Shown: one piece after another, positions 11,443 to 62,774 of the stretch | How positions within the stretch are numbered: position 1 is the first letter of the stretch | Layout: every line of letters starts with the position of its first letter | From: Eledone cirrhosa | Taxonomy: Eukaryota | Assembly: GCA_964016885.1 (NCBI GenBank) | Contig: OZ024756.1 | Coordinates: 44,020,001-44,084,000 of the forward strand | Length of the DNA stretch: 64,000 nt | Reading direction: 5' to 3' | Translations under genes and position numbers: made by a program | Notes under the pieces: model-generated | The model's input: the letters and a program-made list of their open reading frames with translations, nothing else | Told to the model about the DNA's origin: nothing | Databases searched by the model: none

Positions 11443-14400
11443 ATATCACATACCAAGAGTTCCTTCTTATTGCTGACCAGAGACTGCGGCGTCTATACCA
11501 GATCAATCTATGGAATATGGAGATTAATGCTCTCCCAATCAATCCATTGAAACAACCAATTGACATTGCTTTTGACTCAAAAGGCATGATGGTGAGCTCG
11601 ACTTTTTTATTCCCAAATTTGCTTCAGAGCGAAAGGTGATAGTTTAGGTCACAGACACCTCTCGTTTATATAGTATTACTACCTAACTCTAGTTTATGTG
11701 ACATAAAGCATGAGTGGTTGTTGATAGGAAGGACATCCAGCCAGTAAAACCCAGCCAAAATTATAAAAAGCACAACCAATATTCTTGTTCAACCCATGCA
11801 AGCATAGAAAAGGGGACGAATGATGGTGATGTATTCTGTGCCCCTTACATTTTATGTTAATGTTGTATATTTTTAAACATGTCCTTATGTGTCCCTAATA
11901 TTTATGTTGTGTTGTATATTTTTAAGCATATATCATTATATCTCCCCTCCCAAACAATTTTCTAATCCAATTTTCTCCTCCCTATGCAGGTCTACTGGAC
12001 AGATGCCGAAGATGATTCCATCAGTCGAGCTAAACTCAATGGAGATTATTATGAAGTATTACTTCAAGATTCTTCTATATGTACGACTACAGTTTAATAA
12101 TATTTCTTTATTTTTTCACTTGACATTCTTTATTGAACAAAAGTTATACAATGAGGGAAATATTAAAAACAAGGATAAAAACAAATTTAAGTAATGGAAA
12201 GGGGGGGGGGGTAAAGAAGGGCAGATCTGGCTGTAGAGGAAAGTAAAGGACCATAAATGAGAGGAAAGGAAAGGACTATAAATGAGAGGAAAAGGAGGGA
12301 AAGGAAAGGACTATAAATGAGAGGAAAAGGAGGTAAAGAGAAAGGACTATTAGACAATGGAAGAATTTATGTTGAAGTGTGTGTAAGGGATGAGATCCGG
12401 ACAATAAGTGATGGTGTCACATACAGTGAATGTAAGATGTCTGACAGTGTAGGGTAATGTAACATGGACAGTGACTGTAGCAGACTGTATGGAGTGTAGG
12501 GTAATGTAACATGGACAGTGACTAGAGGATGGTATGGAGGATGTACATGTTGGAGAGATTATGATCATTGTTGGTCATAGTAGAATTATTATGTTGTTGG
12601 TATGACAATGGTAGTGTGGTGATATGACAATGGTAGTGTGGTGATATGACAATGGTAGTGTGGTGATATGACAATGGTAGTGTGGTGATATGACAATGGT
12701 AGTGTGGTGATATGACAATGGTAGTGTGGTGATATGACAATGGTAGTGTGGTGATATAACAATGGTAGTGTGGTGATATGACAATGGTAGTGTGGTGATA
12801 TGACAATGGTAGTGTGGTGATATGACAATGGTAGTGTGGTGATATGACAATGGTAGTGTGGTGATATGACAATGGTAGTGTGGTGATATAACAATGGTAG
12901 TGTGGTGATATGACAATGGTAGTGTGGTGATATGACAATGATAGTGTGGTGATATGACAATGATAGTGTGGTGATATGACAATGGTAGTGTGGTGATATG
13001 ACAATGGTAGTGTGGTGATATAACAATGATAGCGTGGTGATATGACTGTGGTGATATGACAATGATAGTGTGGTGATATGACAATGATAGCGTGGTGATA
13101 TGACAATGATAGCGTGGTGATATGACAATGATAGCGTGGTGATATGACAATGATAGCGTGGTGATATGACAATGGTAGTGTGGTGATATAACAATGATAG
13201 CGTGGTGATATGACTGTGGTGATATGACAATGATAGTGTGGTGATATGACAATGGTAGTGTGGTGATATAACAATGATAGCGTGGTGATATGACTGTGGT
13301 GATATGACAATGGTAGTGTGGTGATATGACAATGGTAGTGTGGTGATATAACAATGATAGCGTGGTGATATGACAATGGTAGTGTGGTGATATGACAATG
13401 GTAGTGTGGTGATATGACAATGATAGTGTGGTGATATGACAATGGTAGTGTGGTGATATGACAATGGTAGTGTGGTGATATGACAATGATAGTGTGGTGA
13501 TATAACAATGATAGCGTGGTGATATGACTGTGGTGATATGACAATGGTAGTGTGGTGATATGACAATGGTAGTGTGGTGATATGACAATGATAGTGTGGT
13601 GATATAACAATGATAGCGTGGTGATATGACTGTGGTGATATGACAATGATAGCGTGGTGATATAACAATGATAGTGTGGTGATATGACAATGGTAGTGTG
13701 GTGATATGACAATGGTAGCGTGGTGATATAACAATGGTAGTGTGGTGATATGACAATGGTAGTGTGGTGATATGACAATGGTAGTGTGGTGATATGACAA
13801 TGGTAGCGTGGTGATATGACAATGATAGTGTGGTGATATGACAATGATAGCATGGTGATATGACAATGATTTGGTGGTGGTGCTAATGGTGATGTTATAT
13901 GTATGTCATAAGTTGAATTTATATAAGGTTTTACCATTTTCCTTTGACAGCCTTTGGTGAAATAGTCATAGAACCAACCACACGTCTTTTGTACTTCATC
14001 GACAACAAATCTGGCAATATTGGAGTACTTTCTATGGATACTAAACATTATCGGATCCTCATCCAAACTGGATTAAACCACACGTTTGGTCTGGCTATAG
14101 ACCTTTTCTCTGGGTAAGTTGGTCTTATTATAGATCCCTTTTCTGGATAAATTAGACTGCTGGTCTGACTATAGACCAGTTCTGTGACTAAGTTACACTG
14201 CTGGTTAGACTATAGACCAGTTCTGTGACTAAGTTACACTGCTGGTTAGACTATAGACCAGTTCTATGACTAAGTTACACTGCTGGTTAGACTATAGACC
14301 AGTTCTATGACTAAGTTACACTGCTGGTCTGACTATAGACCAGTTCTGTGATTAAATTCTGGTCACATTTGTTTAGTTGCATTATTTTAATGTTTGAAGT

Positions 14401-16404: not shown

Positions 16405-19047
16405 GCTATCATAAGCTCTTTGTAAAGTTCTGCTCCACTTTGGTCTTGAGATATATGCAACCTTTGTCTACCTCAATTCCCTGGACATGACACACTCACA
16501 GATTCCTTGCCAGAGTTTTCCATGTATGAAGAAGGCAAAATATTTTTCAAACAGGCTCCCTCTCCCTCAGGAGCTATCCTAAGGTTTTTTGGGGGTTTTT
16601 ATATTTATGTTAATATATTCATCATTCTTTCTCCACACAGAAACTGTGTACGAAGACTTTGCTGGGTTCACTCCAACTGAGTTGGAAGTGAAGAAATGGT
16701 CAAAGCCATTCTTTGCAAAAGGTAAGTGTTATATATATATTGAGAGAGATCAATCTCTCTATCTCTCTCTATTTTTCCATCTGTCACTGTGTTATATGTA
16801 TACATATTAATTATATCATTATTCTACATAGCAATATCATATGTATATATATTAATTATATCATTACTCTACATAGCAATATCATATGTATATATATTAA
16901 TTATATCATTACTCTACATAACGATATATGTATATATATTAATTATATCATTATTCTACATAACGATATCATATGTATATATATTAATTATATCATTACT
17001 CTACATAATGATATATGTATATATATTAATTATATCATTATTCTACATAACGATATCATATGTATATATATTAATTATATCATTACTCTACATAACGATA
17101 TATGTATATATATTAATTATATCATTATTCTACATAACGATATCATATGTATATATATTAATTATATCATTACTCTACATAATGATATATGTATATATAT
17201 TAATTATATCATTATTCTACATAACGATATCATATGTATATATATTAATTATATCATTACTCTACATAACGATATATGTATATATATTAATTATATCATT
17301 ATTCTACATAACGATATCATATGTATATATATTAATTATATCATTACTCTACATAACGATATATGTATATATATTAATTATATCATTATTCTACATAACG
17401 ATATCATATGTATATATATTAATTATATCATTACTCTACATAACGATATATGTATATATATTAATTATATCATTATTCTACATAACGATATCATATGTAT
17501 ATATATTAATTATATCATTACTCTACATAACGATATATGTATATATATTAATTATATCATTATTCTACATAACGATATATGTATATATATTAATTATATC
17601 ATTATTCTACATAGCGATATTGTGTCCTTCGTTATTACCAGTCCCTTATATCTACATGGTAGGGGTCGTTAAATAGTTCTACAATGGTGTACCCCTAATT
17701 TCACTACATTCTGATTTGTCTACACTTGTACGTAGGGGTCGTTAAATAGTTCTACAAGGGTGTACCCCTAATTTCACTACATTCTGATTTTTCTACACTT
17801 GTACAGGTTTAGGATTCTGTAAAACACCACACATTCACTGGGGTCGTTTAATTAACATGGATTCTGACAGATGGGTTCCCAGTGGTAAAGTGGTAGCAGC
17901 TCAGTGTTTCTCAGGTTACATGCTCTCTATTGCTGCTGCTATGGTTTGTCTCCATGGAAACTGGACCCATGTTCCCCGATGTATCCCAGGTAAGATCTTC
18001 AGTTCCATATCTACTTCACCATTTTAGGGACCATCTAGAAATTGTATTGTATTTCTCTGTCCAACGGGAATTTGGTTCCTATTTCTAGCAAGTCAAGCCA
18101 CCACAAAGACTGGGGTAATTTTAGTCCCCCACAACAATTTCTAGACAATTCAAAGACTCAATAATATTCCTCTTTCTTTAGATCCTCAGTTGCCCCTCTA
18201 TGGAAACACTGCAAAAGGATACATCAAGTTCACATCCAGTAGACTCTTCATAGTGCCGATAACTTTAAATTACATCAATGTGATCTGTATTGGTGCTGGT
18301 GGAGGTGGCTATGATGGTAAGAGTGACTATGGGAAAGCTGGAGATGGATGGCCGTCTAAATTCAAAGGACTGGTAGCTGAGGGAGGAAAAGGTGGAAGCA
18401 AAACAGAAGGTAAGTTCAAGACATTCTAAACCTCATTTAGAAGTCCAATGTGATATTTGTTCTGCTCTGAGTTACAAACACTCCTTTATAACTCTTCCAC
18501 ATTGTAACTGCTTTAGTTTCAACAGTTGGTCTCAGATCAAGTCAGCTGACAAATACACTAAAATACAAGGAGTCATTATTTGACAGTTTTGAAACTTTGG
18601 TTCTGTTGTCTTTTTTTTTCCATTGTAGGTGGCGCTGGTGGACTGGGGACTGTGGCAGATGGAGCTAAAGGAGGATGGAGTCGCAGCAAATGCACAGCAG
18701 GTGGTGCCGCCGGTGGTTCTGTTGAATGGCTCAAGGATTCTAGGTTGTACCCTTTCTGTGGAGCAGGTGGGGTCTCGGAGTGTCCAATTGGACCAAGACC
18801 CTACTCACCGAAACCCGGTCCCGGGGGTACATACAACAACGGCACAGCAGCAGGTTTGTATGGCGGAGGTGGAGCAGCTGTGTTTAAAATGGGGTCTGGA
18901 GGAGGAGGTGGTTTCTCCAGAGGTTCCATTCGAATTAATGCTTGGGACATGATCCCCGTCACTATAGGTAAACCTGGTGATGCATCATACGGACAGCCTG
19001 GTGGTGGCGTAGTTGTGGTGTCTTGGGGGTGGCCATCATTTCAATAG
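11443..19047 (+). CDS. Multi-exon gene, 5' incomplete: YWTD (LDLR class B) six-bladed beta-propeller + Sushi/CCP + glycine-rich C-terminal domain; probably secreted
   Basis: Exons 11443-11591, 11990-12080, 13951-14113, 14490-14617, 15103-15262, 15635-15732, 16641-16721, 17807-17989, 18182-18409, 18629-19047. All introns are GT-AG with consistent phases, 1700 nt in total ending in TAG. Motifs: FLLIAD, PIDIAFD..VYWTD, LLYFID, GLAID, PRGI, PYDIA..LYWTD, PVGLTIF; Sushi CKTPHIHWG..CFSGY..CLHGNWTHVPRC; then FTSSRLFIVP..VICIGAGGGG...GGGVVVVSW. Confidence 0.88.
12601..13870. repeat. Intronic 22-bp minisatellite (tatgacaatggtagtgtggtga), about 58 copies with variant units
   Basis: Direct tandem array. 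It explains the three stop-free His/Thr-rich ORFs on the minus strand. Confidence 0.95.
14167..14352. repeat. Intronic 41-bp tandem repeat, about 4.5 copies
   Basis: gactatagaccagttctgtgactaagttacactgctggtta repeated with period 41; a degenerate copy overlaps the end of the upstream exon. Confidence 0.9.
14875..15052. mobile_element. piggyBac-type MITE
   Basis: TTAA-CCCTTTGGCATTCA ... TGAATGCTAAAGGG-TTAA, i.e. TTAA target duplication and CCC/GGG termini. Related copies lie near 28525-28703 and 62528-62733. Confidence 0.8.
15757..16056. repeat. Purine-rich minisatellite, unit about 26-28 bp (gagtgggaggggggaaacagagagggac)
   Basis: About 11 tandem G-rich units in an intron; potentially G-quadruplex forming. 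Confidence 0.9.
16790..17618. repeat. Intronic minisatellite of alternating 42- and 45-bp units (87-bp dimer)
   Basis: atatgtatatatattaattatatcattactctacataacgat alternates with a 45-bp variant. Both lengths are multiples of 3, which produces the spurious 319-aa and 295-aa ORFs. Confidence 0.93.
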
Positions 19048-20111
19048 CTCTGACCAGAGTTATATTTCAAAGAATCTCTAACAAGTTTCATTGTTTTCTC
19101 GTCAACATCCACCATTTTACATGTTCATTATTAACGTTGTTTTTAATTTTCTAGTCATTTTATTGGATAAATAAAAATATACAAATATATAAAAATAAAA
19201 CAAAATGAAGTAAGAGTGACCATTGCTTGACATGTCTCACTAAGATGTAAAGACAAATCTAAGGAAGGTTGACATGAAGTGGCAGAAAGATATTGAGAGA
19301 GTGACAAATATATACACATGTGCACATGCACAAATGTGTGCATGCATATACATATATATATATATACACACACACAGACACACACATGTATACATATATA
19401 CTCACACACAAATATGTATACATATATACTCACACATACAAACTCAAGGTATCACAACATACATATTATGTAGGATATTTGTGCTTCTCAGTAGAAAGAC
19501 TCAATGGATATTTCTCAGGAGGATTCAAATTTATATATATATGTGTGTATATATATAAATATATATAAAGTTATGTTAGTGCCGCGCCATCCAGGCCGAA
19601 ACAAATGAGATCGTGTAGGTGTCACGACAAAAAAACACACAGTCCACGCTGTAATGTGGCCGTGTAGGCAACACGGTAAAAACCTCCCAGACCCACACTG
19701 TAAATGTGGTTGGTGTTAGGAAGGGCATCCAACTGTAGAAAACCTGCCAGACAGTCCTATGCGAGCAAGACAATCACTCTTGCCTCAAGTGGGACTACCC
19801 CCGTCCAAACCCATGCAAGCGTGGAACACGGACGTTAAACGTTGATGATGATGATGATGATGATGATAAAGAGAGAGAGAGAGAGAGACAGACAGAGCCA
19901 TATATCTCTTGACAAAAACACAGTATTTTGTACACACACAAAAAGCACAATATTTAGAAAAAATAAGTACTTAAAATGGAAAAAGTCCTTATTTCCTACA
20001 TATATATCAGATGTCAAAACTGCAAGAGCTCAACCGTTGGGCTAAGTCACAGGCACAGTAATATCTGAAATATTGAGTACTATGGAGAAGTAAGAGTTCA
20101 ATATGACAGAA

Positions 20112-36313: not shown

Positions 36314-36531
36314 GTAAGGCACCAGATATACATATATGTATGTATAGGTACATATACAAATAGATATGTGTGTATAATTTTCAGCTGCGGTCATTTTCTG
36401 AGACTGTCTCTCCCTCCATATCTTTCTATACTATGTCTTGTGTCTATGACTGACTGAAGAGAAAACAACTAGACAGAGAAATAGAAACCAATCAGACCCA
36501 GAAATATCGTTTGAAAAGTTAGGTGGACAAG

Positions 36532-39498
36532 ATGGCAAGTGATAAAGAAGATGTGGAGAAGACTGTTACTGTCACTCTACCGGACGATAAGACATTGGAG
36601 AAGAGTCCTGAGAAAAGCAATGAGGTTGCTCCAAATGATGGTGAAGGTGAAGACAACACACCAATGTCACCTGTTACTCCAACTCTTCGGCCAAGGGCAG
36701 CCAAAAATTCGGCCAGAATGTTGAATAAATTGCTGAGTTCTAGTCAGGAGATGAGGAAGCGTCCTGTCAGAAGTACGAGACCAAAGAGGAAGCTACTAAC
36801 CGAGTTCCGACCTTTCAAATGTGAGTACTGTGGGAAATACTTCCCGAAGGCCAAACAATTGTCTATACACGTCCGCACTCACACTGGCGAGAAACCGTAC
36901 AAATGTGAACAGTGTCAGCGTGCATTCACTCAATCACATCATCTCGTCACGCATCTCCGAACCCACACCAAAGATCGTCCTTACCCATGCGTCTGCTGTC
37001 CCCGAGCATTCACAACGTCCAGTAGTCTGACCCGGCATGTGCGCACTGCCCACTTACATGAACGTCCCTTTAAATGTACATATTGCGACAGGGCTTTCGC
37101 ATTCCAGGATCGCTTGGACTCACATATTCGAACTCATACCGGTGTAAGACCCTTTCAGTGCCCCATGTGTCCACGTGCATTTGCCGTCTCCTATCGACTG
37201 ACTGCACACATTTTCATCCACCGTCATGGCAAACCCCACAAATGCACGTACTGCCCCAAAGCATTTGCTGTCGCTTCTCATCTGACAAAGCACATCCGTG
37301 TACATACGGGCGAACGACCCTTTAAATGTGTCCACTGCGAGAAGTCATTCACCCAACCCTATCATTTGACTATACATCTGAGGAATCATTCCGGAGAAAG
37401 ACCCTATAAATGCACTTACTGCACCGAAGCGTTTAAACGATCCGGTGACTTGCGCGCTCACATTCGGATCCACACAGGCGAGAGGCCATTTCAGTGCAAA
37501 GTTTGCGGGAGACAGTTCACACAGTCAAGTAACTTGTCGAAGCACCAGAAAATACATACCAACGACCGTCCTTTCCGGTGTTCTCACTGTGATCGTGGCT
37601 TCATCCGAGCTAGTAGTGTGATTGCCCATGAGAGGACACACACTGGGGAGAAGCCATACAACTGTGGTCTGTGTCCCAAAGCTTTTATGTCCATGGGAAG
37701 TCTCACGAAACACGTTAAGCTGAATCATGGAGGAGAAGACGGCGTTGATTCTAATGAGGCTTTTGCTAAATCTTACAAGTGCGAATTCTGTCCGGAGGCG
37801 TTTCGAAGGCGCTGGGAGTTAAAGGACCACTTTCAAAAGACCCACTCAAAAGACAGACCCTATAAATGTGACCAGTGTGACAAAGCATTCACTCAGAGTA
37901 CCCACTTAACCTCACACAAACGTACACATACATCAGAGTCGACTGCTACCACCAAAACAACCGACAACTCTGAAAATGATTCTGAAAAGAAACTCAGTTC
38001 AGATGGAAGCGCTGACAATCAAAATAGTGGGAGCCAAGATGATAAAGGAACTGAGACAAAATCTTCGACAGCAGATGTAAAACCAGAGAAACCGTTTAAG
38101 TGTGAGTACTGCGCCTACACATGCCGACGACGACACGACCTAACAAAACACACTCGCAAACACACGGGGGTTTCACCTCATCAGTGTGAGTTCTGTGCCA
38201 AGACTTTCACGCAGCGAGGAAACTTACTTTCACACAGGCGTATCCACACAGGTGAGAAGCCGTACAAGTGCGACTACTGCGAGAGTCGGTTTCGTTCTAG
38301 CAGCCACTACAGCACACATTTGAAACTACATACTGGAGACATGCACAAATGCCAGCACTGCGGAAAGCAATTCACAAAACTTGATCATTACCAAAAACAT
38401 TTACGTATTCACACCGGAGAGAAACCATTTCGCTGTGAATATTGTGGAAAAGGATTCTCTGCTTCTGAATATTTGACTGTACATCTACGTATTCACACAG
38501 GAGTGAAACCCTACAACTGTAGCCACTGTGGAGAGGCGTTCAGGCGCGTTGGAGACCTGCGTGTACATGAAATGATACATACTGGCTACAGGCCATACAA
38601 ATGCCAGTATTGTGATAAGGGATTTAGGAAATCATATGGTCTGACAGCCCACCTCCGGAGTCATACTGGAGAACGCAACCACAAATGTGAGATGTGCAAC
38701 AAGTCATATGGGACTGCATCTCACCTGAAGCAGCATCAGCTGGTTCACAACACTGAACGTCCATACAAGTGTAAATACTGCAACAAGACATTTGCTGAGT
38801 CGAGGAACCTCGCCATACATACACGCAGTCACTCTGGAGAGCGTCCGTTTGGCTGTTCATTCTGCGACAAGTCGTTTACACGGCTCGACAAGTTGACTAT
38901 ACACCAACGTACTCACACCGGTGACCGGCCATATACATGTCGTTACTGTGATAAATCTTTCACTGCAGCTTATGGCCTCAACAAACACATGAAGACACAC
39001 TCGCATGAGAAGAAGTATGCCTGTCCATGGTGCGGAGATGACTACCTGCAGTTTCCTGCACTCAATGCACACATGGCTACTCACACTGGCCTCGACAAGA
39101 ACAAGTGCAACCTGTGCGGTGTGCAATTCTCCGACACCGACCAGCTGAATAAACACCTGTGGACATGCTTCCTAACACTGGGAAGCTCCAGTCAGCCCCT
39201 TCCAGAGAACACACAAGTGGCTAGTTCCTCAGAAGAGGCTAACCTGTCGGAACCGTGCAACGAACTCTCGCCACCACCTCCACCTCCAACGCTGCCACCA
39301 CCACCACTACCAACAACAACAGCAACAACAACTGGCAATGTAAAGAATGAAATGGCCTCTATTTGGCAGCATCCTAACACACATTACATAATGGATAACA
39401 TTTCCAAGATCCCTGCTGCACAATTTTCCAGAAATAATTCTCAAAGTACCGATTCTCAATGCACTTATGAATACGCTGGCAACATGTTCCTATTATGA
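36532..39498 (+). CDS. Poly-C2H2 zinc-finger protein (25 C2H2 + 1 C2HC fingers), about 988 aa, single coding exon
   Basis: Uninterrupted ORF with repeated CxxC-x12-Hxxx(x)H fingers and TGEKP/TGERP linkers. Two arrays of 13 are separated by an S/T/D-rich linker; basic NLS-like RKRPVRSTRPKRK near the N-terminus. The first ATG is at 36532 (the ORF track starts at a GTG, 36523). Confidence 0.96.
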   Translation: MASDKEDVEKTVTVTLPDDKTLEKSPEKSNEVAPNDGEGEDNTPMSPVTPTLRPRAAKNSARMLNKLLSSSQEMRKRPVRSTRPKRKLLTEFRPFKCEYCGKYFPKAKQLSIHVRTHTGEKPYKCEQCQRAFTQSHHLVTHLRTHTKDRPYPCVCCPRAFTTSSSLTRHVRTAHLHERPFKCTYCDRAFAFQDRLDSHIRTHTGVRPFQCPMCPRAFAVSYRLTAHIFIHRHGKPHKCTYCPKAFAVASHLTKHIRVHTGERPFKCVHCEKSFTQPYHLTIHLRNHSGERPYKCTYCTEAFKRSGDLRAHIRIHTGERPFQCKVCGRQFTQSSNLSKHQKIHTNDRPFRCSHCDRGFIRASSVIAHERTHTGEKPYNCGLCPKAFMSMGSLTKHVKLNHGGEDGVDSNEAFAKSYKCEFCPEAFRRRWELKDHFQKTHSKDRPYKCDQCDKAFTQSTHLTSHKRTHTSESTATTKTTDNSENDSEKKLSSDGSADNQNSGSQDDKGTETKSSTADVKPEKPFKCEYCAYTCRRRHDLTKHTRKHTGVSPHQCEFCAKTFTQRGNLLSHRRIHTGEKPYKCDYCESRFRSSSHYSTHLKLHTGDMHKCQHCGKQFTKLDHYQKHLRIHTGEKPFRCEYCGKGFSASEYLTVHLRIHTGVKPYNCSHCGEAFRRVGDLRVHEMIHTGYRPYKCQYCDKGFRKSYGLTAHLRSHTGERNHKCEMCNKSYGTASHLKQHQLVHNTERPYKCKYCNKTFAESRNLAIHTRSHSGERPFGCSFCDKSFTRLDKLTIHQRTHTGDRPYTCRYCDKSFTAAYGLNKHMKTHSHEKKYACPWCGDDYLQFPALNAHMATHTGLDKNKCNLCGVQFSDTDQLNKHLWTCFLTLGSSSQPLPENTQVASSSEEANLSEPCNELSPPPPPPTLPPPPLPTTTATTTGNVKNEMASIWQHPNTHYIMDNISKIPAAQFSRNNSQSTDSQCTYEYAGNMFLL

Positions 39499-55052: not shown

Positions 55053-56315
55053 TTACTGGTTCTGCATTTCGAAATATCTATATGTTGGGTTCTCGTAGCC
55101 ATTCATTTGCATGTTGGCCACGTGGCGTTCCTCAGGAGAGGCAGCTGGGTCCACCTCGACAAAGCCATGTGTGACACGTTGCCTCTGGCTACGCCGTCTC
55201 AGCATCACGACAGCCACCAGGATTATGATGAAAACAGCCACACCACCAATGGCGATACCAACAACACTGTTGGCTGGGCTGTTATTGTACAGGTCATTGA
55301 GGGCAACCTGCAAGGACAAAACAAAATAAAGATTAAACAATCAAGGCAGTGATAAAACAAGCAATATTAATTGATATTGATTAAATCTTTGACAGGTTCC
55401 AATGTAAAAGCTCTTAGTCTGAGAGATGAGAACATCTTGAAGCTGTTCATTAAAGAACATCCAATATTAGAGATACAATATATTGTAAAATATCTACCAA
55501 CTATAAAGAAATGTTAAGAAATGATTCAACAACAGAACTCCCTATTCTCTTTACAGCTTCCATTGATTCCCATTTTATCATCAACCCTTTTTTTTAGGTT
55601 TATTTTGCCTCACGTTGGCCTTCCATATTTGATTTTACTTTTATTTTCATATTCGCTTATCTCTGTTTATCCTCTTTTGTCTCAACTGTAAGAAGTACTC
55701 AATACTTCCCCAAGTATGTCAAGGCTTACTAGCTCTATACAGACGTTTAAATTGATTAAATAAATAACTCTTTTGATACTAGCCTGCCCCCAAAACCAGG
55801 GAACCTGTCTCACTGACCCTTTTCAAACAAAAGAAACCCAGTCCCATTAAACCTTCTCAAACCACAGAAACCCAGGGTCTGGAGAAGGTGGGTAGGGTAA
55901 AATAGGGAGCTAGTTCCCTGACCCTTCTTAAACAAAAGAAGCCCAACGTACCTGATCAGCAATGAATGGCTGTTGACCAGAGTGAGCATGGTACTTTGGA
56001 TGATTTTGTTGCACAATTTCATGAACTGGATGCTGGACATAGGCAGGGCGTTCATCTTCTATGGATTCAGAATCATAGACTGAAGCTTTGTCATCCATTT
56101 GCTGTTGTTGTTGTTGTTGTTGCTCTGGCTCATCTGGTTCAGCTTTCGTTGGTTTCACCTTGTCGTCAATCTCAGTCACAGATTCTGACAGAAATAAGAC
56201 AGAGTTTGGGATGAGTCCAAGGTATGATTGGTAGAGAACTCACCTGACTTTGGGATCATTAGACTTGTGGTTTCTCAAAATCAATACTGTGTGTGTGTGT
56301 GTGTGTGTGTGTATG

Positions 56316-56363
<48 letters not shown>

Positions 56364-59300
56364 TGCCACACCATGCAGCCTCTCATCATACACACAAAGA
56401 CATCACAGAGCTTTACTCATCTTTCACACTCAAACTTACCATCATCATCGTCATCATCATCATCATCATCAGAATAATCTTCAGACTTGTCACTTTCAGC
56501 AGGGGTCTCCTCTGGGGCAGGATCCTCATGAAGGAGGTATTTCATGGAGTTGGCATTGATTCCTTGGAATTTGGCCAAAAATTCTTCTGCAAAGTGAATG
56601 GACAATTGAATTGAAAATATAGCAGAAAGGTAGAAAGTAAAGAGGTTTATTTTGTAGACATTGAACTGAGGAATTCCTCTCTAAATATATTCAATCAAGC
56701 TCCTAGACCTGGTGCAGCCAGTTGTATGGTATGTCACTCTAGACCAGGCAATGGGTAACCTTTTTCGAGCAGTGGGTCACATAGGATGTGACTCATCATA
56801 AGGTGGGCTGCATTACTAATAAATTGAAAGCAATTTTGAAATCAGGCATGCCATTCAGAAAGCCAAATGGGCCACACTTTGGCCATGACTGCTCTAGACT
56901 GTGCGTCCATCGTGGCATTTCTGTAGAGTCTTAGAAATGCTTGGCAGTGGTCATCCATCTCCTCTCCAATATACAGCCTCAGCCACCAAGGTAACAGTTT
57001 GAAACACCGATCATGTGATTTGTTCAATTTATTATTGATTTTGCCATGTTTCTAACTAAGCAGAACTTGTTGGATAACCCAACAACAAACACACCAACTA
57101 ATAGCTTGAGATGACTATGGGAAAGGTTTGAAACTGTGGTGGTGGTGATAGTGCAATGGTGGTAATCGTAGTAGTGGAGGTGGTGGTGGTGGTAGTAGTG
57201 GAGGTGGTAGTAGTGGAGGTGGTGGTGGTGGTAGTGGTAGTGGTAGTAGTGGAGGTGGTGGTGGTGGTCGGAGTGGAGGTGGTAGTGGTGGTAGTAGTAG
57301 TGGTGGTAGTGGTGGTGGTAGTGGTGGTGGTGGTGGTGGTGGTGGTGGTGGTGGTGGTGGTGGTGATGGTGGTAGTAGTGGTGATGGTGGTGGTAGTAGT
57401 GGTGATGGTGGTGGTAGTAGTGGTGATGGTGGTGGTAATAGTGAAATGGTGGTGGTAATAGTGAAATGGTGGTAATCATAGTGGTGATAGTAGTAGTAGT
57501 AGTGGTGGTAGTGGTGGTGGTGATAGTGCAATGGTGGTAATCGTAGTAGTGGAGGTGGTAATCGTAGTAGTGGAGGTGGTGGTAGTGTGGTGGTGGTTGT
57601 GGTGGTGGTGGTGGTGATGGTGGTGGTGATGGTAGTAGTGATGGTGGTGGTAATAGTGAAATGGTGGTAATCATAGTGGTGGTGGTAGTAGTAGTAGTGG
57701 TGGTGGTGGTGGTAGTAGTGGTGGTGGTGGTAGTAGTAGTGGTGGTGGTAGTAGTGGTGGTGGTGGTGGTAGTAGTAGTAGTGGTGGTAGTAGTAGTGGT
57801 GGTAATGATGGTATTATTAAATATGCAAAAATAATTTTTTTTAAATATTCCACAAACACCTGTTGATGGAAACGGGGAAACTTACCAACTTTGGGTCGCA
57901 CCAAGCGATCAACTTCTGAGTCTCTCTTCAGCCACTCAATCATTCGACGAATCCGTTCATCAATGAGGTTCAAGTGTTCAATAACACGTTCACGGATGTT
58001 ACTTGCTTCCTTTGGATCAGTATCATGCAAGTGTTGGTAATGTTTAATGGCATGGGTACGGTCCTTCTGTTCAACTCTGATGTAGGCAACGGCAGTCTTC
58101 TGGATCTTGTGGATCTGATTTTCAAAGAAAATAGAAATAAAAGGATCAATGGACATGACAGAAAGATGGGAGGTTCAGGAAGAGGTGGGGTGGCTTCAAT
58201 GGAACAAGACAATCTGTGGCTTGAGCTAAGTTTAAAGTATCCGATTAAAGTCAGACCTGTGGTCACCTGGCATATATCTAGCCCCAGAATGTGACCAGAG
58301 TAAGTCCATCTTTACCTCTTCCACCAAGAGAGAGAGAGGAGGGTGGAGTGGGATGGCTGTTTGAAAGTCCATCTTCACCCCACCCCTCTCAGAGAGAGAG
58401 AGGGAGGGAGGGAGCATGTGGGTGGATGTTTGAAAGTCTATCTTACCTTCAGAGGAGATTCATCTAAGAAAGTCTGGAGAGCTTTCATAAGATTCCTCTT
58501 CTTTTCATTGATGTTACTCTGAACACGTTGTTGGTGGATGGCGATCAATTGTTTCTTCTCCAGAATTGTCTCTTGTCCGTATGCCTTGTAGATCTTGTTG
58601 TAACGCTGACAATGACACAACCAATATGGTGAATAACACAAAGGAAACAACTATGAAACAAAACTCACCATTTTAAAGGATCTTATTTAATTAATTTTAA
58701 TACCAACTTAAGTAAAGCAGCCTCTGGTTCTATGAAACAAAACTGATCATTTTAAAGAGGGTTCCTCTACTTAACCCCTTTGATAGCAACCTGCCCAAAT
58801 TCAATGAAACAAAAGAACCCATTTTAAGGGGTTCCTATTTAACCTGTTTTTATACCAACCCACCCCATCCCAAAATAACCCCCCACACTGTACAAGGGGT
58901 TAAAATTAAAAAGAGATAAATTGTTTTTTTCTTTTTAAAGGTGATATATACCTCTGTAAGTTCCTTGTTCAGTTGCATAGCCTGTTTAGGGTCAGTCTTC
59001 TTCATCTCACGAACCCTTTCACGGGCATTCTTCCATTCTTTCATCATCTGAAAGTAGATGAGGAACGTGGAGAACATATTGAGAGCCAGGGAGAAACACT
59101 GAAGGACTTGAATAATTCCAGATTAATTTACACTCAACCATAGATACAACTTCTTAATGCTAACTACTGAAGTATGAAGTAGAAACTGGAATATTTAAGT
59201 GAGCTCTAACATATTTAGTATTAAATAATTAACAAGAAATAATTATGTGGCAAGGATAAAAACAATATTAACCAATATCTAACATTATTTTCATTTTTCT

Positions 59301-62300
59301 GCCAAATATGAAAAAAAACTCTGGACATGGTTCAGTCTTATGATCTCATCAGTGAAGCATAGCTTTCACCATAACTACTGAAAGCTGTGATGAAAGAATT
59401 AGAAAATAGACAGGTAGTCAGAGAGAGAAGGAAAGGGGCTTGATCCCTTACCTTGGTGTTTCTCTCCACCTCTACTTGTTGCATCACTTTTTCAGCAGCC
59501 TTGAATTTCTCGTGTTCATTAGTGTATTTACCCAGGAACTGGGAGTCTCCCTTCAGGTAGGCAGTGTAGTCATTTAGGGAGCTCTCAAGTTTCTTGATAC
59601 TTGCAGGGGTTGAAGGAGTGGTTTCAACATCCTCATCCATTTCAGAACTATGTTCTGAAAATAATAGAGAAAACAAGATTATTATTATTATTATTATTAT
59701 TTAGTATCGGTAAAGGGTCGGACGCCATGCTTTGCAGCATAGAGTTACGCCCCTTTATGGTCTGAGTTCAAATCCCGCCAAGATTAACTTTACCTTTCAT
59801 CCTTACGGGGTCGATATAATAAAGTACCAGTAATGTACTGGATAATTGCTGGCCTTGTGCCAAAAAGTAGAAACAATTATTATTATTTAGTTTTTTGTTA
59901 TAAATTTTTATTTTACACAAAAACCCCACAAGGTACTGCCAAGTGTAGTCATTATTATTTTATTGTACTAACAACACCACCCCCACCACACTACTAGTAT
60001 CAACACAACCATCAACAACAGCACCACCAATACCACCAATATCAACACCACTACCACAACCCCCACACTACCATCAACACTACCACCACCACTACTATCA
60101 ATCCCCCCGCCCACACACACACTACCAGCACCATCATCACTTCCTTCTCTTCCAATCAGCCAAACTGACAATAACAGCTTCTCACCTGCTGAACACTTAA
60201 ATCCAGTAGTACAGGATTAGTTTAATCCAAGGAGGAAATCTGATTAGTTTATCCAAGAGATGATTAATAATATAATAACTCCTCCACCACACTTCACACC
60301 CTCCCCCCCCCCCCCCCCACAACTCACGTGTGTGTGTGTGTTTGGTGCACCCAGTTTAGACTAGGTACACCGCATCCCTGTGTGTCCTAAGAAGTACCTA
60401 AAAGAGTTAGTGTCAGGAAGGGCAACCAGCTGTAAACCACTTCCCCCCAAAAAGTCCTGTCCAACCCATGACAGCATGGAAAAGTTGATGTAAAAAAAAA
60501 CAATGATGATGATATATATTTGTGCACACACACATTATAAGACAGTAGTGTTGGTGCCACATCTAAAGCACCCAGACCACCCCACCTTGTAAAGTGGTAG
60601 TGCCGAGGTCATGATAAAATGCTCCCAGTATACTCTGTTAAGTGATTGGTGTTAGGAAGGGCAACCAGCCATAGAAATCATGCTCCCACTACACCACCAC
60701 TACTACACCGGTACAACACTACACCACCGCTACTACTACTACAACACTACTTTTTCTCAGTATTCTTATTTTGTTTCAAGACTTCTCCTGTGAAAAGGTC
60801 AAACTTGATGTGTATAATGAGATCTGATAATTAATCAACAATTAATATATTGTGTGTGTTAATGTCAAGATTAGATCTACAATTAAACTGTTGTAACCCC
60901 TGATGGACTAAGCCCTGTGCAACTGCACAGCTGTACTAAGTCTCTCTACAGCTGTACGAAACCTCTCTACAACTGTACTAAACCTCTCTACAGCTGTACT
61001 AAACCTCTCTACAGCTGTACGAAACCTCTCTACAACTGTACTAAACCTCTCTACAACTGTACTAAACCTCTCTACAACTGTACGAAACCTCTCTACAACT
61101 GTACGAAACCTCTCTACAGCTGTACGAAACCTCTCTACAGCTGTACGAAACCTCTCTATAGCTGTACTAAGTCTCTCTACAGCTGTACGAAACCTCTCTA
61201 CAACTGTACGAAACCTCTCTACAGCTGTACGAAACCTCTCTACAGCTGTACTAAACCTCTCTACAGCTGTACTAAACCTCTCTACAGCTGTACTAAACCT
61301 CTCTACAGCTGTACTAAACCTCTCTACAGCTGTACTAAACCTCTCTATAGCTGTACTAAACCTCTCTATAGCTGTACTAAACCTCTCTACAGCTGTACTA
61401 AACCTCTCTACAGCTGTACTAAACCTCTCTACAGCTGTACTAAACCTCTCTACAGCTGTACTAAACCTCTCTACAGCTGTACTAAACCTCTACAGCTGTA
61501 CTAAACCTCTCTATAGCTGTACTAAACCTCTCTACAGCTGTACTAAACCTCTCTACAGCTGTACTAAACCTCTCTACAACTACTAAACCCCTCTACAGCT
61601 GTACTAAACCCCTCTACAACTGTACTAAACCCCTCTACAACTGTACTAAACCCCTCTACAATTGTACTAAACCTCTCTACAATTGTACTAAACCTCTCTA
61701 CAATTGTACTAAACCTCTCTACAACTGTACTAAACTCCTCTACAGCTCTACAACTGTACTAAACCTCTCTACAGCTGTACTAAACCTCTCTACAGCTGTA
61801 CTAAACCTCTCTACAGCTGTACTAAACCTCTCTACAGCTGTACTGTCACAGCAAAGACACGTGCAACAACTACCAAAATTACTAACCTTTAGGACAGCAA
61901 ACAAACTCCACACCACTGAAATGTCCAGGTTCCTTACATGGCCAAAGCATGGCAAAACTTTGAGTGGTCATCTGACGTAGGGCACACTTGCTCATGGCAG
62001 TCTTGTTGCATTCGTCAAATTCATTACAGACACGAGAATCATGGTAATGGTCAAAGATACAGTGTTCTGGCACCAACAATGCATCACTTTGGAATGGTCC
62101 AACTGGAAAGGAGAAACAAAGTAATATGTTGTATTTATTTATGAGGTTTAATAGAATAAAATAATTCCTCATCAGAGGAGAGCTAGGTGGTGGTGATGGG
62201 GGGGGGGGGGGGGCTAGGTAGGGGGAAGAAGGAGTAGGTGAGAAGGACAATAGCTAAACTAAACCAATATTGGAAAGAGAGAAGATAAAATGTGAAGACT

Positions 62301-62436
62301 TACCTAAACAACGGAATGGTCTGACCGTGTGGTTGCCATGTTTGTGGCAGTGAGTGGCATTAAAACGGCACCAGTTCGGAATGGTCACTTTGGAGCTTGC
62401 TTGTAGGACATTGGTCACTTCATGATCTGGGTATAA
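55053..62436 (-). CDS. APP: Amyloid precursor protein family (APP/APPL); last 9 exons, 5' exons outside the window
   Basis: Exons (minus strand): 62304-62436, 61887-62102, 59452-59654, 58952-59047, 58447-58605, 57886-58114, 56440-56586, 55952-56184, 55053-55307, all in phase. E1 motifs (VTIPNWC, VRPFRCL, SDALLVPEHC, GVEFVCCP), E2 motifs (EHEKF, MKEW, HQQRVQ, KDRTHAIKHYQH), a TM helix, then HGFVEVD, PEERHV and GYENPTYRYFE. Confidence 0.97.
56745..56891. mobile_element. hAT/Charlie-type MITE in an APP intron
   Basis: Exact 8-bp duplication CTCTAGAC at 56737-56744 and 56892-56899 around CAG...CTG termini. Confidence 0.75.
57135..57812. repeat. (GGT/AGT)n trinucleotide low-complexity tract, intronic
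   Basis: Source of the poly-H, poly-P and poly-V pseudo-ORFs. Confidence 0.93.
59703..59882 (+). mobile_element. tRNA-derived SINE (main family) in an APP intron
   Basis: Same sequence as 42407-42593; inserted in an (att)n tract about 50 nt from an APP splice acceptor. Confidence 0.85.
60925..61845. repeat. Intronic 21-bp minisatellite (ctgtactaaacctctctacag), about 43 copies
   Basis: Direct tandem array; explains the SCTKPLY pseudo-ORF. Confidence 0.95.
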
Positions 62437-62774
62437 CTGAGAGAGAATACATGTATATACAACAGTGTTAAAGTGGACAGAGAATTTGATGGTAGAAAAT
62501 ATTTCATGAGCTGTTTCAAATTGAAGATTAACCCTTTAGCATTTAAACCTGCCATATCTGGCCAGAATTGCCTCACCTCTTTCTGTTCAAACCGGCCATA
62601 ACCAGCTGCTCATACTGATGGTAAGGTATTGTTCTCGAAATAAATAATATCAAAATCTCAGATTCGATATTATGTGAGATAAAGCCTTTAACACAATAGT
62701 AAATATAGAGTAAAGTAAATGGTAAAGGGTTGAGACAGAACCTGACAGTGAAGTTATCATTAGTGGCTCACTTT

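What the first reader, a model, noticed from the sequence alone, without database searches (positions are those of the whole stretch)
11443..19047. Unusual extracellular architecture: YWTD propeller + Sushi + phage-tail-like glycine-rich domain, with no EGF and no TM
Seen: ten in-phase exons give a complete six-blade LDLR-type propeller, a Cys-free 27-aa linker exon, one Sushi exon (phase 1-1) and a roughly 215-aa Gly-rich C-terminus that ends at a stop with no TM helix. Established: YWTD propellers in the LDLR/LRP family are normally followed by an EGF module, and phase 1-1 exons are the usual exon-shuffling units. Inference: this is an exon-shuffled, probably secreted recognition or adhesion protein (immune, skin or salivary), in a combination I do not recognise from any named family.
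Basis: partly seen in the sequence, partly recalled or inferred. Interest (0 to 1): 0.75.

Follow-up and report, generated by a model that had tools for sequence, protein, structure and literature searches.

The report
Secreted mollusc protein with phage-fibre-like tip
This gene, with relatives in octopods, snails and clams, encodes a likely secreted protein that joins three LDL-receptor-type propellers to a glycine-rich end predicted to fold like the host-gripping tip of a phage tail fibre, so it likely works as a two-ended binding adaptor whose partners are still unknown.

Summary
The ten exons are real and in frame, but they are only the 3' half of a gene. Fifteen more coding exons and a probable signal-peptide exon lie upstream of the window. 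The whole model (about 1,228 aa) is signal peptide, propeller, EGF, propeller, EGF, propeller, linker, Sushi, Gly-rich domain, with no TM helix. 'No EGF' is therefore wrong for the protein; the Cys-free linker sits where limpet and abalone orthologues keep six cysteines, so it is likely a decayed third EGF. Spliced contigs join propeller, linker, Sushi and Gly-rich exons. One copy was found in this genome. Relatives occur in 18 named mollusc species, and the domain tree separates cephalopods, gastropods and bivalves, so the fusion is ancient, not an octopus novelty. The Gly-rich domain is predicted to be a TNF-like sandwich carrying a glycine bundle: best folds are cyanophage Pam3 fibre (Z 10.2) and phage Bxb1 tail tip (Z 8.0); ALK/LTK is weak (Z about 3.2). 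The same domain occurs in an amphioxus protease, amoebozoan TRIM ligases and a giant virus. No paper on the family was found. Verdict: a new architecture of known modules; function inferred, not shown.

The parts
1..11442 (+). 3' part of a 13.0-kb intron (largely AT microsatellite) between the second EGF exon, which lies upstream of the window (G000:C17:44018338-44018454), and the first exon of propeller 3. The probable signal-peptide exon (ATG at C17:44004977) and 15 coding exons for propeller 1, EGF1, propeller 2 and EGF2 (C17:44005768-44018454) are outside the window.
   Evidence: tblastn of orthologues on 200 kb upstream, splice sites and phases, signal exon, composition
11443..11591 (+). 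Exon, start of YWTD propeller 3 (phase 1-0)
   Evidence: 84% to Argonauta P0001; phases
11990..12080 (+). Exon, propeller 3 with YWTD motif (phase 0-1)
   Evidence: Ldl_recept_b 26.6 bits
13951..14113 (+). Exon, propeller 3 (phase 1-2)
   Evidence: Ldl_recept_b 26 bits; spliced to the next exon in X4
14490..14617 (+). Exon, propeller 3 (phase 2-1)
   Evidence: 77% to P0001; joint in X4
15103..15262 (+). Exon, propeller 3 with YWTD motif (phase 1-2)
   Evidence: 73% to P0001
15635..15732 (+). Exon, end of propeller 3 (phase 2-1)
   Evidence: 76% to P0001; spliced directly to 16641 in X4
16641..16721 (+). Cys-free 27-aa linker exon (phase 1-1), in the place of the third EGF module; likely a decayed EGF
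   Evidence: Cys in this interval: 6 in Patella and Haliotis, 4 in eight rows, 2 in three, 0 in five incl. all three cephalopod rows; spliced on both sides in X4
17807..17989 (+). Sushi (CCP) exon, phase 1-1, four Cys
   Evidence: Pfam Sushi E 0.0015; over cut-off in P0006 and P0016; Cys and Trp invariant in 18 of 18 rows
18182..18409 (+). First exon of the TNF-like/glycine-rich (TG) domain, phase 1-1
   Evidence: PF21722 E 0.00037; fold; joints in X4; single match in G000
18629..19047 (+). Last coding exon: rest of the TG domain and stop
   Evidence: 76% to P0001; joint in X4; single match in G000
19048..19334 (+). Probable 3' UTR (at least to 19334), with AATAAA hexamers near 19170-19200
   Evidence: X4 contig covers 19154-19334; hexamers read from the sequence

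Best explanation
The gene encodes a likely secreted, roughly 1,228-aa protein of three YWTD propellers, two EGF modules, a Sushi spacer and a C-terminal glycine-rich domain predicted to fold like a phage fibre tip, and it likely works as a two-ended extracellular adaptor that holds a fixed, probably host-made, ligand at its tip and other proteins on its propellers. Shown: exon structure, splicing of the 3' half, lack of TM helix, conservation of the architecture in three mollusc classes, one copy found here. Predicted: the fold (TNF-like sandwich made of N- and C-terminal strands, glycine bundle inserted between them). Inferred: secretion (signal peptide judged by eye); that variable loops on the conserved glycine core make the binding site, as proposed for Pam3 gp24 and described for S16 gp38 and ALK; that the propellers bind proteins as those of LRP4/5/6 and nidogen do; that the ligand is the animal's own (matrix, cell-surface or signalling protein) because the gene was kept as a low-copy orthologue and its tip evolves no faster than its propellers.
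For: Open 25-exon model, 77% to Argonauta and 57% to P0002 over the whole length. Signal-peptide-like exon 790 bp upstream, in phase, good donor; hydrophobic N-termini in 10 of 18 aligned relatives, by eye. No 19-residue hydropathy above 1.93 after residue 40 in 18 of 18; no PPP[ST]P. TG model pLDDT 76.5, pTM 0.80; VIA Z 10.2 (rmsd 3.7, 137 aligned) to Pam3 fibre and 8.0 (rmsd 3.0, 131 aligned, 31% id) to Bxb1 tail tip, next row 3.9, of 48,161 chains. 29 invariant columns in 14 TG rows, 25 of them Gly, between variable loops; low-confidence segments are the variable ones. The domain is at or near the C-terminus in most carriers and sits beside effector parts in other hosts: RING-B-box ligases, a trypsin-type protease, phage tail proteins. 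Propellers best match LRP4/LRP2/LRP6. Domain tree: 21 mollusc rows one branch (97/87), cephalopods, gastropods (7 rows) and bivalves (11 rows) apart. Window versus Argonauta: TG 173/215 identical, propellers 229/287, 217/270, 217/263. One match in G000 for each TG exon.
Against: No ligand, tissue or phenotype data. A shared fold shows no function. Net charge of the TG domain swings from pI 4.7 to 9.7 among molluscs, which fits a fixed conserved ligand poorly. Across classes the non-glycine identity of the TG domain is only 0.32. The closest folds bind bacterial surfaces, which favours the microbial rival. Sinanodonta has two near-identical copies, so 'single copy' is not universal, and the genome search gives lower bounds only. 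No signal-peptide predictor was run and the 5' exons were not checked against transcripts.
Confidence: 0.45

Rival explanations
1. Soluble pattern-recognition protein or opsonin: the fibre-tip-like domain grips bacterial surfaces (outer-membrane proteins, LPS, wall glycans), and the propellers and Sushi module pass the bound microbe to haemocytes or a complement-like cascade.
For: Closest folds are phage tail proteins; Wei et al. [quoted passage not shown] In amphioxus the domain is in a modular serine protease, in amoebae at the end of TRIM ligases. Variable loops and variable charge. Sushi modules are common in complement proteins (own knowledge).
Against: One copy found here and an orthologue-like tree, whereas mollusc recognition families such as C1qDC and FREPs are usually expanded (recalled). 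Tip no more divergent than propellers between two octopods.
Confidence: 0.27
2. Soluble co-receptor or decoy in growth-factor signalling: the TG end binds a peptide ligand as the ALK/LTK glycine-rich domain does, and the LRP4/5/6-like propellers bind Wnt-, agrin- or Dkk-type partners, so the protein ferries or sequesters ligands.
For: ALK/LTK ectodomains fill the top of the Foldseek list (E 0.013-0.12) and score Z 3.1-3.3; propeller array matches LRP4 (E 2e-55) and LRP6; low-copy retention suits a developmental gene.
Against: The ALK match is weak and level with plain TNF/C1q sandwiches; ALK_LTK_GRD (PF12810) was not matched by any of 6 TG rows at E up to 1. Propeller identity to LRPs is about 20%, too low to carry over ligands.
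Confidence: 0.15
3. Structural matrix component (shell, periostracum, mucus, egg coat) in which the Gly-rich part self-assembles or binds chitin or mineral rather than recognising a ligand.
For: Secreted, Gly-rich, found across conchiferan classes; extra Cys in C-terminal tails of 15 of 18 rows could cross-link.
Against: The domain is predicted to be a compact folded unit, not a repeat; it is kept in the octopod of this window; six database ids gave no paper, though shell-proteome supplements were not read.
Confidence: 0.1
4. Annotation artefact: propeller exons and Gly-rich exons belong to separate genes, or the region is a pseudogene.
For: Only 5 of the 9 introns among the ten exons were seen spliced, in one run of unrecorded type and low depth.
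Against: One 409-nt contig runs from the last propeller exon through linker and Sushi into the first Gly-rich exon; no stop in 25 exons; the same fusion is annotated in many molluscs.
Confidence: 0.02

Closest known systems
LRP4 / LRP5 / LRP6 ectodomains (LDLR family)
   Same: Tandem YWTD propeller-EGF units; best fold match LRP4 (E 2e-55, 21% id); databases auto-name the orthologues 'LRP1/4/5/6-like'.
   Different: Three propellers, no LDL-A repeats, no TM helix, no cytoplasmic tail; third EGF decayed; ends in Sushi plus TG domain.
Cyanophage Pam3 tail fibre gp24 (7YPX/7YFW) and mycobacteriophage Bxb1 tail-tip chain Q (9D93)
   Same: TNF-like sandwich with an inserted glycine-rich bundle; Z 10.2 and 8.0 over most of the domain; PHROG 863 matched by 4 of 6 TG rows.
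   Different: Animal, intron-containing, likely secreted, with conserved cysteines; no N-terminal helical stalk, which carries most of the trimer contact in gp24 (PMC9608196).
ALK / LTK TG (TNF-like plus glycine-rich) domain
   Same: Same kind of sandwich-plus-polyglycine layout; top Foldseek rows; Wei et al. note that gp24 resembles C. elegans ALK.
   Different: About 215 aa against about 300; Z only 3.1-3.3; no PF12810 match; no kinase, no TM.
Pfam PF21722 Gly_rich_2
   Same: Only family matched, by 6 of 6 TG rows (best E 5.9e-6); top Atlas hits are viral clusters, two of three with this family, score 0.88, a lead only.
   Different: Window exon and full-length mollusc proteins score under the curated cut-off, which is why the domain is missing from their annotations.
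Nidogen
   Same: Secreted, has a YWTD propeller and EGF modules, bridges matrix proteins (own knowledge); weak sequence match.
   Different: No NIDO, G2F or thyroglobulin domains; three propellers; different C-terminus.

Membership tests
LDLR/LRP receptors | YWTD propeller-EGF units | tested here: met
   Three propellers, two EGF
LDLR/LRP receptors | LDL-A (complement-type) repeats | tested here: not met
   No Ldl_recept_a in Pfam scans of the mollusc proteins; the 24 Cys of the model are accounted for without such repeats
LDLR/LRP receptors | Single TM helix and cytoplasmic tail with NPxY or PPPSP | tested here: not met
   No TM-like segment in 18 of 18 rows; PPP[ST]P in 0 of 18; NPxY in 3 of 18, all inside the ectodomain; stop follows the TG domain
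ALK/LTK receptors | TM helix and tyrosine kinase domain | tested here: not met
   None in Pfam scans or hydropathy
ALK/LTK receptors | TG domain homologous to ALK GRD | tested here: inconclusive
   Foldseek E 0.013 and VIA Z 3.1-3.3, rmsd about 3.1, 89-95 aligned; no PF12810 match; ALK sequences were not in the tree
Pam3 gp24-type TNF-like/glycine-rich fold | Beta-sandwich from N- and C-terminal strands with an inserted glycine-rich region | tested here: met
   Predicted model: strands at 13-37, 59-66 and 175-212, confident non-helix non-strand Gly segments between; Z 10.2 over residues 10-214
Pam3 gp24-type TNF-like/glycine-rich fold | Glycine segments in polyproline/polyglycine II conformation | not testable with these tools
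   The tool returns no coordinates or torsion angles; inferred from the superposition and the conserved Gly runs
Pfam PF21722 Gly_rich_2 | Score at or above the curated cut-off (24.3 bits) | tested here: inconclusive
   21 bits for the window exon, 19-20 for P0001; 6 of 6 rows match, best E 5.9e-6; amoebozoan relative P0038 passes at 34 bits
Nidogen | NIDO, G2F and thyroglobulin domains | tested here: not met
   Absent from Pfam scans
Complement regulators (RCA) | Tandem arrays of Sushi modules | tested here: not met
   One Sushi module only

The most novel reading that the evidence does not exclude
Animals hold a second lineage of the phage-fibre-tip (TNF-like plus polyglycine) domain, separate from ALK/LTK and closer to phage, giant-virus and amoebal versions. 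It was in place before molluscs and amphioxus diverged, and molluscs have used it for about half a billion years at the tip of a secreted LRP-like scaffold to recognise microbial surfaces, the same job it does on phage tails.
Probability: 0.25. Interest if true: 0.78.

Novelty: new variant of a known kind. Interest (0 to 1): 0.52.

Why it matters
Glycine-rich polyproline II bundles are rare: the survey read here lists antifreeze proteins, Obg, carboxylases, phage gp38 and ALK/LTK (bioRxiv 10.1101/2023.11.25.568672, parts 1-2 of 4 and passages). This family would add a secreted animal carrier that is conserved across molluscs and hidden under wrong 'LRP-like' or 'PE-PGRS-like' names. It gives a low-copy target for knock-down in oysters, snails or cephalopods and a way to ask whether the fibre-tip fold entered animals once or twice. 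It also shows a graded loss of an EGF module whose exon survives as a linker.

Tried and rejected
Extra exon at 16104-16214 (open, phase 1-1, three Cys): no Pfam match, no match to orthologues, skipped by the spliced contig; rejected as a constitutive exon. Trimer of the TG domain: the complex job gave no answer (score 0.00, mark 0.32, alignment not used); it says nothing either way. Cationic, polyanion-binding tip: charge is not conserved; rejected. Recent transfer from phage into octopus: the gene has introns and the domain tree follows mollusc classes; rejected. Sequence search of solved structures with TG profiles gave only chance rows. Family searches of G000 with PF21722 and PF12810 found nothing, not even this locus, so they are uninformative. 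Atlas search with full-length P0002 gave no usable hit. The one-clade test was not informative on an unrooted tree. Homologue search with P0001 900-1180 was crowded out and returned 2 proteins. Earlier scan findings: none in three look-ups. Papers on Bxb1 and on ALK structures were not held; the Jabs preprint had no usable text.
Full report
Observation. The region is eukaryotic, AT-rich, in a 3.0-Gb assembly. Pfam marks propeller repeats on 2 of the 6 propeller exons, Sushi on exon 17807-17989 and Gly_rich_2 on exon 18182-18409, the last two under their cut-offs. The closest named protein is from Argonauta hians, 77% identical over the whole model, so the organism is likely an octopod (inference).

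The gene is twice as long. The last exon found six longer proteins among 7,664 candidates, five of them 1,119-1,413 aa mollusc proteins with YWTD repeats. Aligning three of them to 200 kb upstream of the window gave 15 more coding exons 1.5-14.2 kb before the window start. All 25 exons join without a stop into 1,208 residues. A short exon 790 bp further up has an ATG, a hydrophobic 20-codon stretch and a phase-1 donor GTAAGA; it was picked by eye from a long, mostly repeat-derived candidate list, has no alignable match in P0002, and brings the total to 1,228 aa. The order is signal peptide, propeller, EGF, propeller, EGF, propeller, linker, Sushi, Gly-rich domain. A model of the Argonauta protein with 17 relatives has mean pLDDT 81.7 and matches LRP4, LRP2 and LRP6.

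Transcript evidence. No run was on record as RNA. Contigs of run X4 lack the introns at GT..AG joints 14113/14490, 15732/16641, 17989/18182 and 18409/18629, and the loose end before 17807 is the linker exon. One 409-nt contig (depth 4.84 in both calls) spans the last propeller exon to the first Gly-rich exon. That is 5 of the 9 introns of the window part, from one study, at low depth; run X1 of the same study covers the introns as DNA.

The 'missing' EGF. Between propeller 3 and Sushi, 18 aligned proteins carry 6 Cys (Patella, Haliotis), 4 (eight rows), 2 (three rows) or none (five rows: the three cephalopod rows, Pomacea, and Lottia, whose interval is only 8 residues). The phase 1-1 linker exon is therefore likely a decayed EGF exon (inference). 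It is the least conserved part (mean identity 0.16) yet modelled with fair confidence.

No membrane anchor. None of the 18 has a TM-like stretch after residue 40 (maximum 1.93, on a beta-strand), none has PPP[ST]P, and 10 have hydrophobic N-termini by eye; the others look partial or mis-started.

The Gly-rich domain. In 14 aligned copies 29 columns are invariant, 25 of them Gly, plus two Cys, a Val and the final Trp. AlphaFold2 gives pLDDT 76.5, pTM 0.80, with strands at both ends and confident irregular Gly segments between. Of 48,161 solved chains, the best are cyanophage Pam3 fibre (Z 10.2, rmsd 3.7, 137 aligned) and Bxb1 tail tip (Z 8.0, rmsd 3.0, 131 aligned); the next row is 3.9, and ALK/LTK, TNF and C1q lie at 3.0-3.6. 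The tool warns that Z under 8 can be a common arrangement. Foldseek had no PDB match at E 0.001 but ranked ALK/LTK, Bxb1 and Pam3 on top; among predicted viral structures 44 passed, led by a Satyrvirus protein (E 1.5e-11, TM 0.61). Wei et al. 2022 (PMC9608196; abstract and passages) describe gp24 as a TNF-like domain plus a glycine-rich lattice with a hypervariable tip proposed to bind the host, and note its likeness to C. elegans ALK. A 2026 paper (PMC13243192; passages) reports PPII bundles in 7YFW and 9D93. PPII geometry in my model could not be measured.

Distribution and age. A profile search of 1.84 billion representatives gave 171 hits at E 0.001, 150 listed. I looked up names for 26 clusters and had 9 more rows. 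Mollusc carriers come from 18 named species of cephalopods, gastropods and bivalves; several records are partial or split. Other carriers: a Branchiostoma protein with TG, Frizzled, Ig and trypsin domains, RING-B-box proteins of Pelomyxa and Thecamoeba, a Satyrvirus RING protein, a Phenylobacterium protein, and unnamed proteins, many matching phage tail families. A tree of 74 of 96 extracted domains (22 dropped: 19 near-copies, 3 weak or partial; 191 of 437 columns) has the 21 mollusc rows on one branch (97/87), with cephalopod, gastropod and bivalve groups, amphioxus beside them (100/97), and the amoebozoan and giant-virus rows on another branch (100/98). The branch joining these two groups has weak support (97/69), the tree is unrooted, the profile was built from the animal rows, and ALK was not included, so the origin (transfer or old eukaryotic inheritance) stays open. 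Exon-sized fragments from unnamed records, including amphioxus-like ones, break at the same place as the window's intron inside the domain, a hint that this intron is old; their taxa are unknown. Each TG exon has one match in G000, a lower bound.

How it likely works. In every context found, the domain sits at an end or beside an effector part, which fits a target-recognition module (inference). In molluscs the partner is an LRP-type propeller array, a known protein-binding platform (own knowledge), with no anchor. I read it as a secreted two-ended adaptor. Low copy number, an orthologue-like tree and equal divergence of tip and propellers lean to a host ligand (0.45); the phage analogy, the amphioxus and amoebal contexts and the variable charge keep microbial recognition open (0.27).

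Literature. Nine searches of the held library: Pfam/InterPro ids (0 papers; the underscore name was read as one word), six database ids of orthologues (0), mollusc plus YWTD plus Sushi terms (14 papers, seen as listings only, none titled on this family), and six on polyglycine, ALK and phage fibres. The ALK review PMC10605310 was seen in passages. No supplements were read; shell or plasma proteome tables may list the protein under other ids, and subscription journals are not held.

Verdict. Observation partly confirmed; interpretation partly supported. Not an LRP, ALK or nidogen family member by tested features, though it likely works like an LRP ectodomain at one end and a fibre tip at the other. 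A new architecture of known modules, conserved across molluscs, with no description found. Interest 0.52.

Noticed in passing
window 36523-39498 (+): Single 991-codon open frame with a long C2H2 zinc-finger array (Pfam); ordinary for cephalopod genomes.
   Followed up: partly
window 55053-62535 (-): Exons of an amyloid precursor protein (APP) family gene: APP_N, CuBD, E2 and C-terminal domains; its 5' end lies further right.
   Followed up: partly
window about 260-11400: About 10 kb of AT/ACAT microsatellite (GC 3.5% over 4-10 kb) filling the intron before propeller 3.
   Followed up: no
window about 2275-2965: Long inverted repeat with arms of about 340 bp, seen by eye; looks like a fold-back or MITE-type element.
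   Followed up: no
window 14987-15056: Short intronic stretch matched by hundreds of very deep contigs in X4: a high-copy repeat.
   Followed up: no
window 12600-13870 and 16790-17620: Intronic tandem repeats that give long spurious open frames.
   Followed up: no
P0035, P0038, P0052, P0059, P0078, P0079, P0166: Amoebozoan RING-B-box (TRIM) proteins and a Satyrvirus RING protein carry the same TG domain, once to three times, where TRIMs usually carry their target-binding domain; they form one branch. Possible amoeba-giant virus exchange.
   Followed up: partly
P0003, P0011 (Branchiostoma): Modular serine protease with TG domain(s), Frizzled CRD, Ig and trypsin domains; auto-named F2.
   Followed up: partly
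P0023 (Solemya): Database model fuses a DNA polymerase B piece to the Sushi-TG end; likely a mobile-element insertion or a mis-joined model.
   Followed up: no
L021, about 199.3 kb upstream of the window (-): A weak tblastn row shows a stretch that resembles an ENaC/ASIC channel exon; the motif is recalled, not tested.
   Followed up: no
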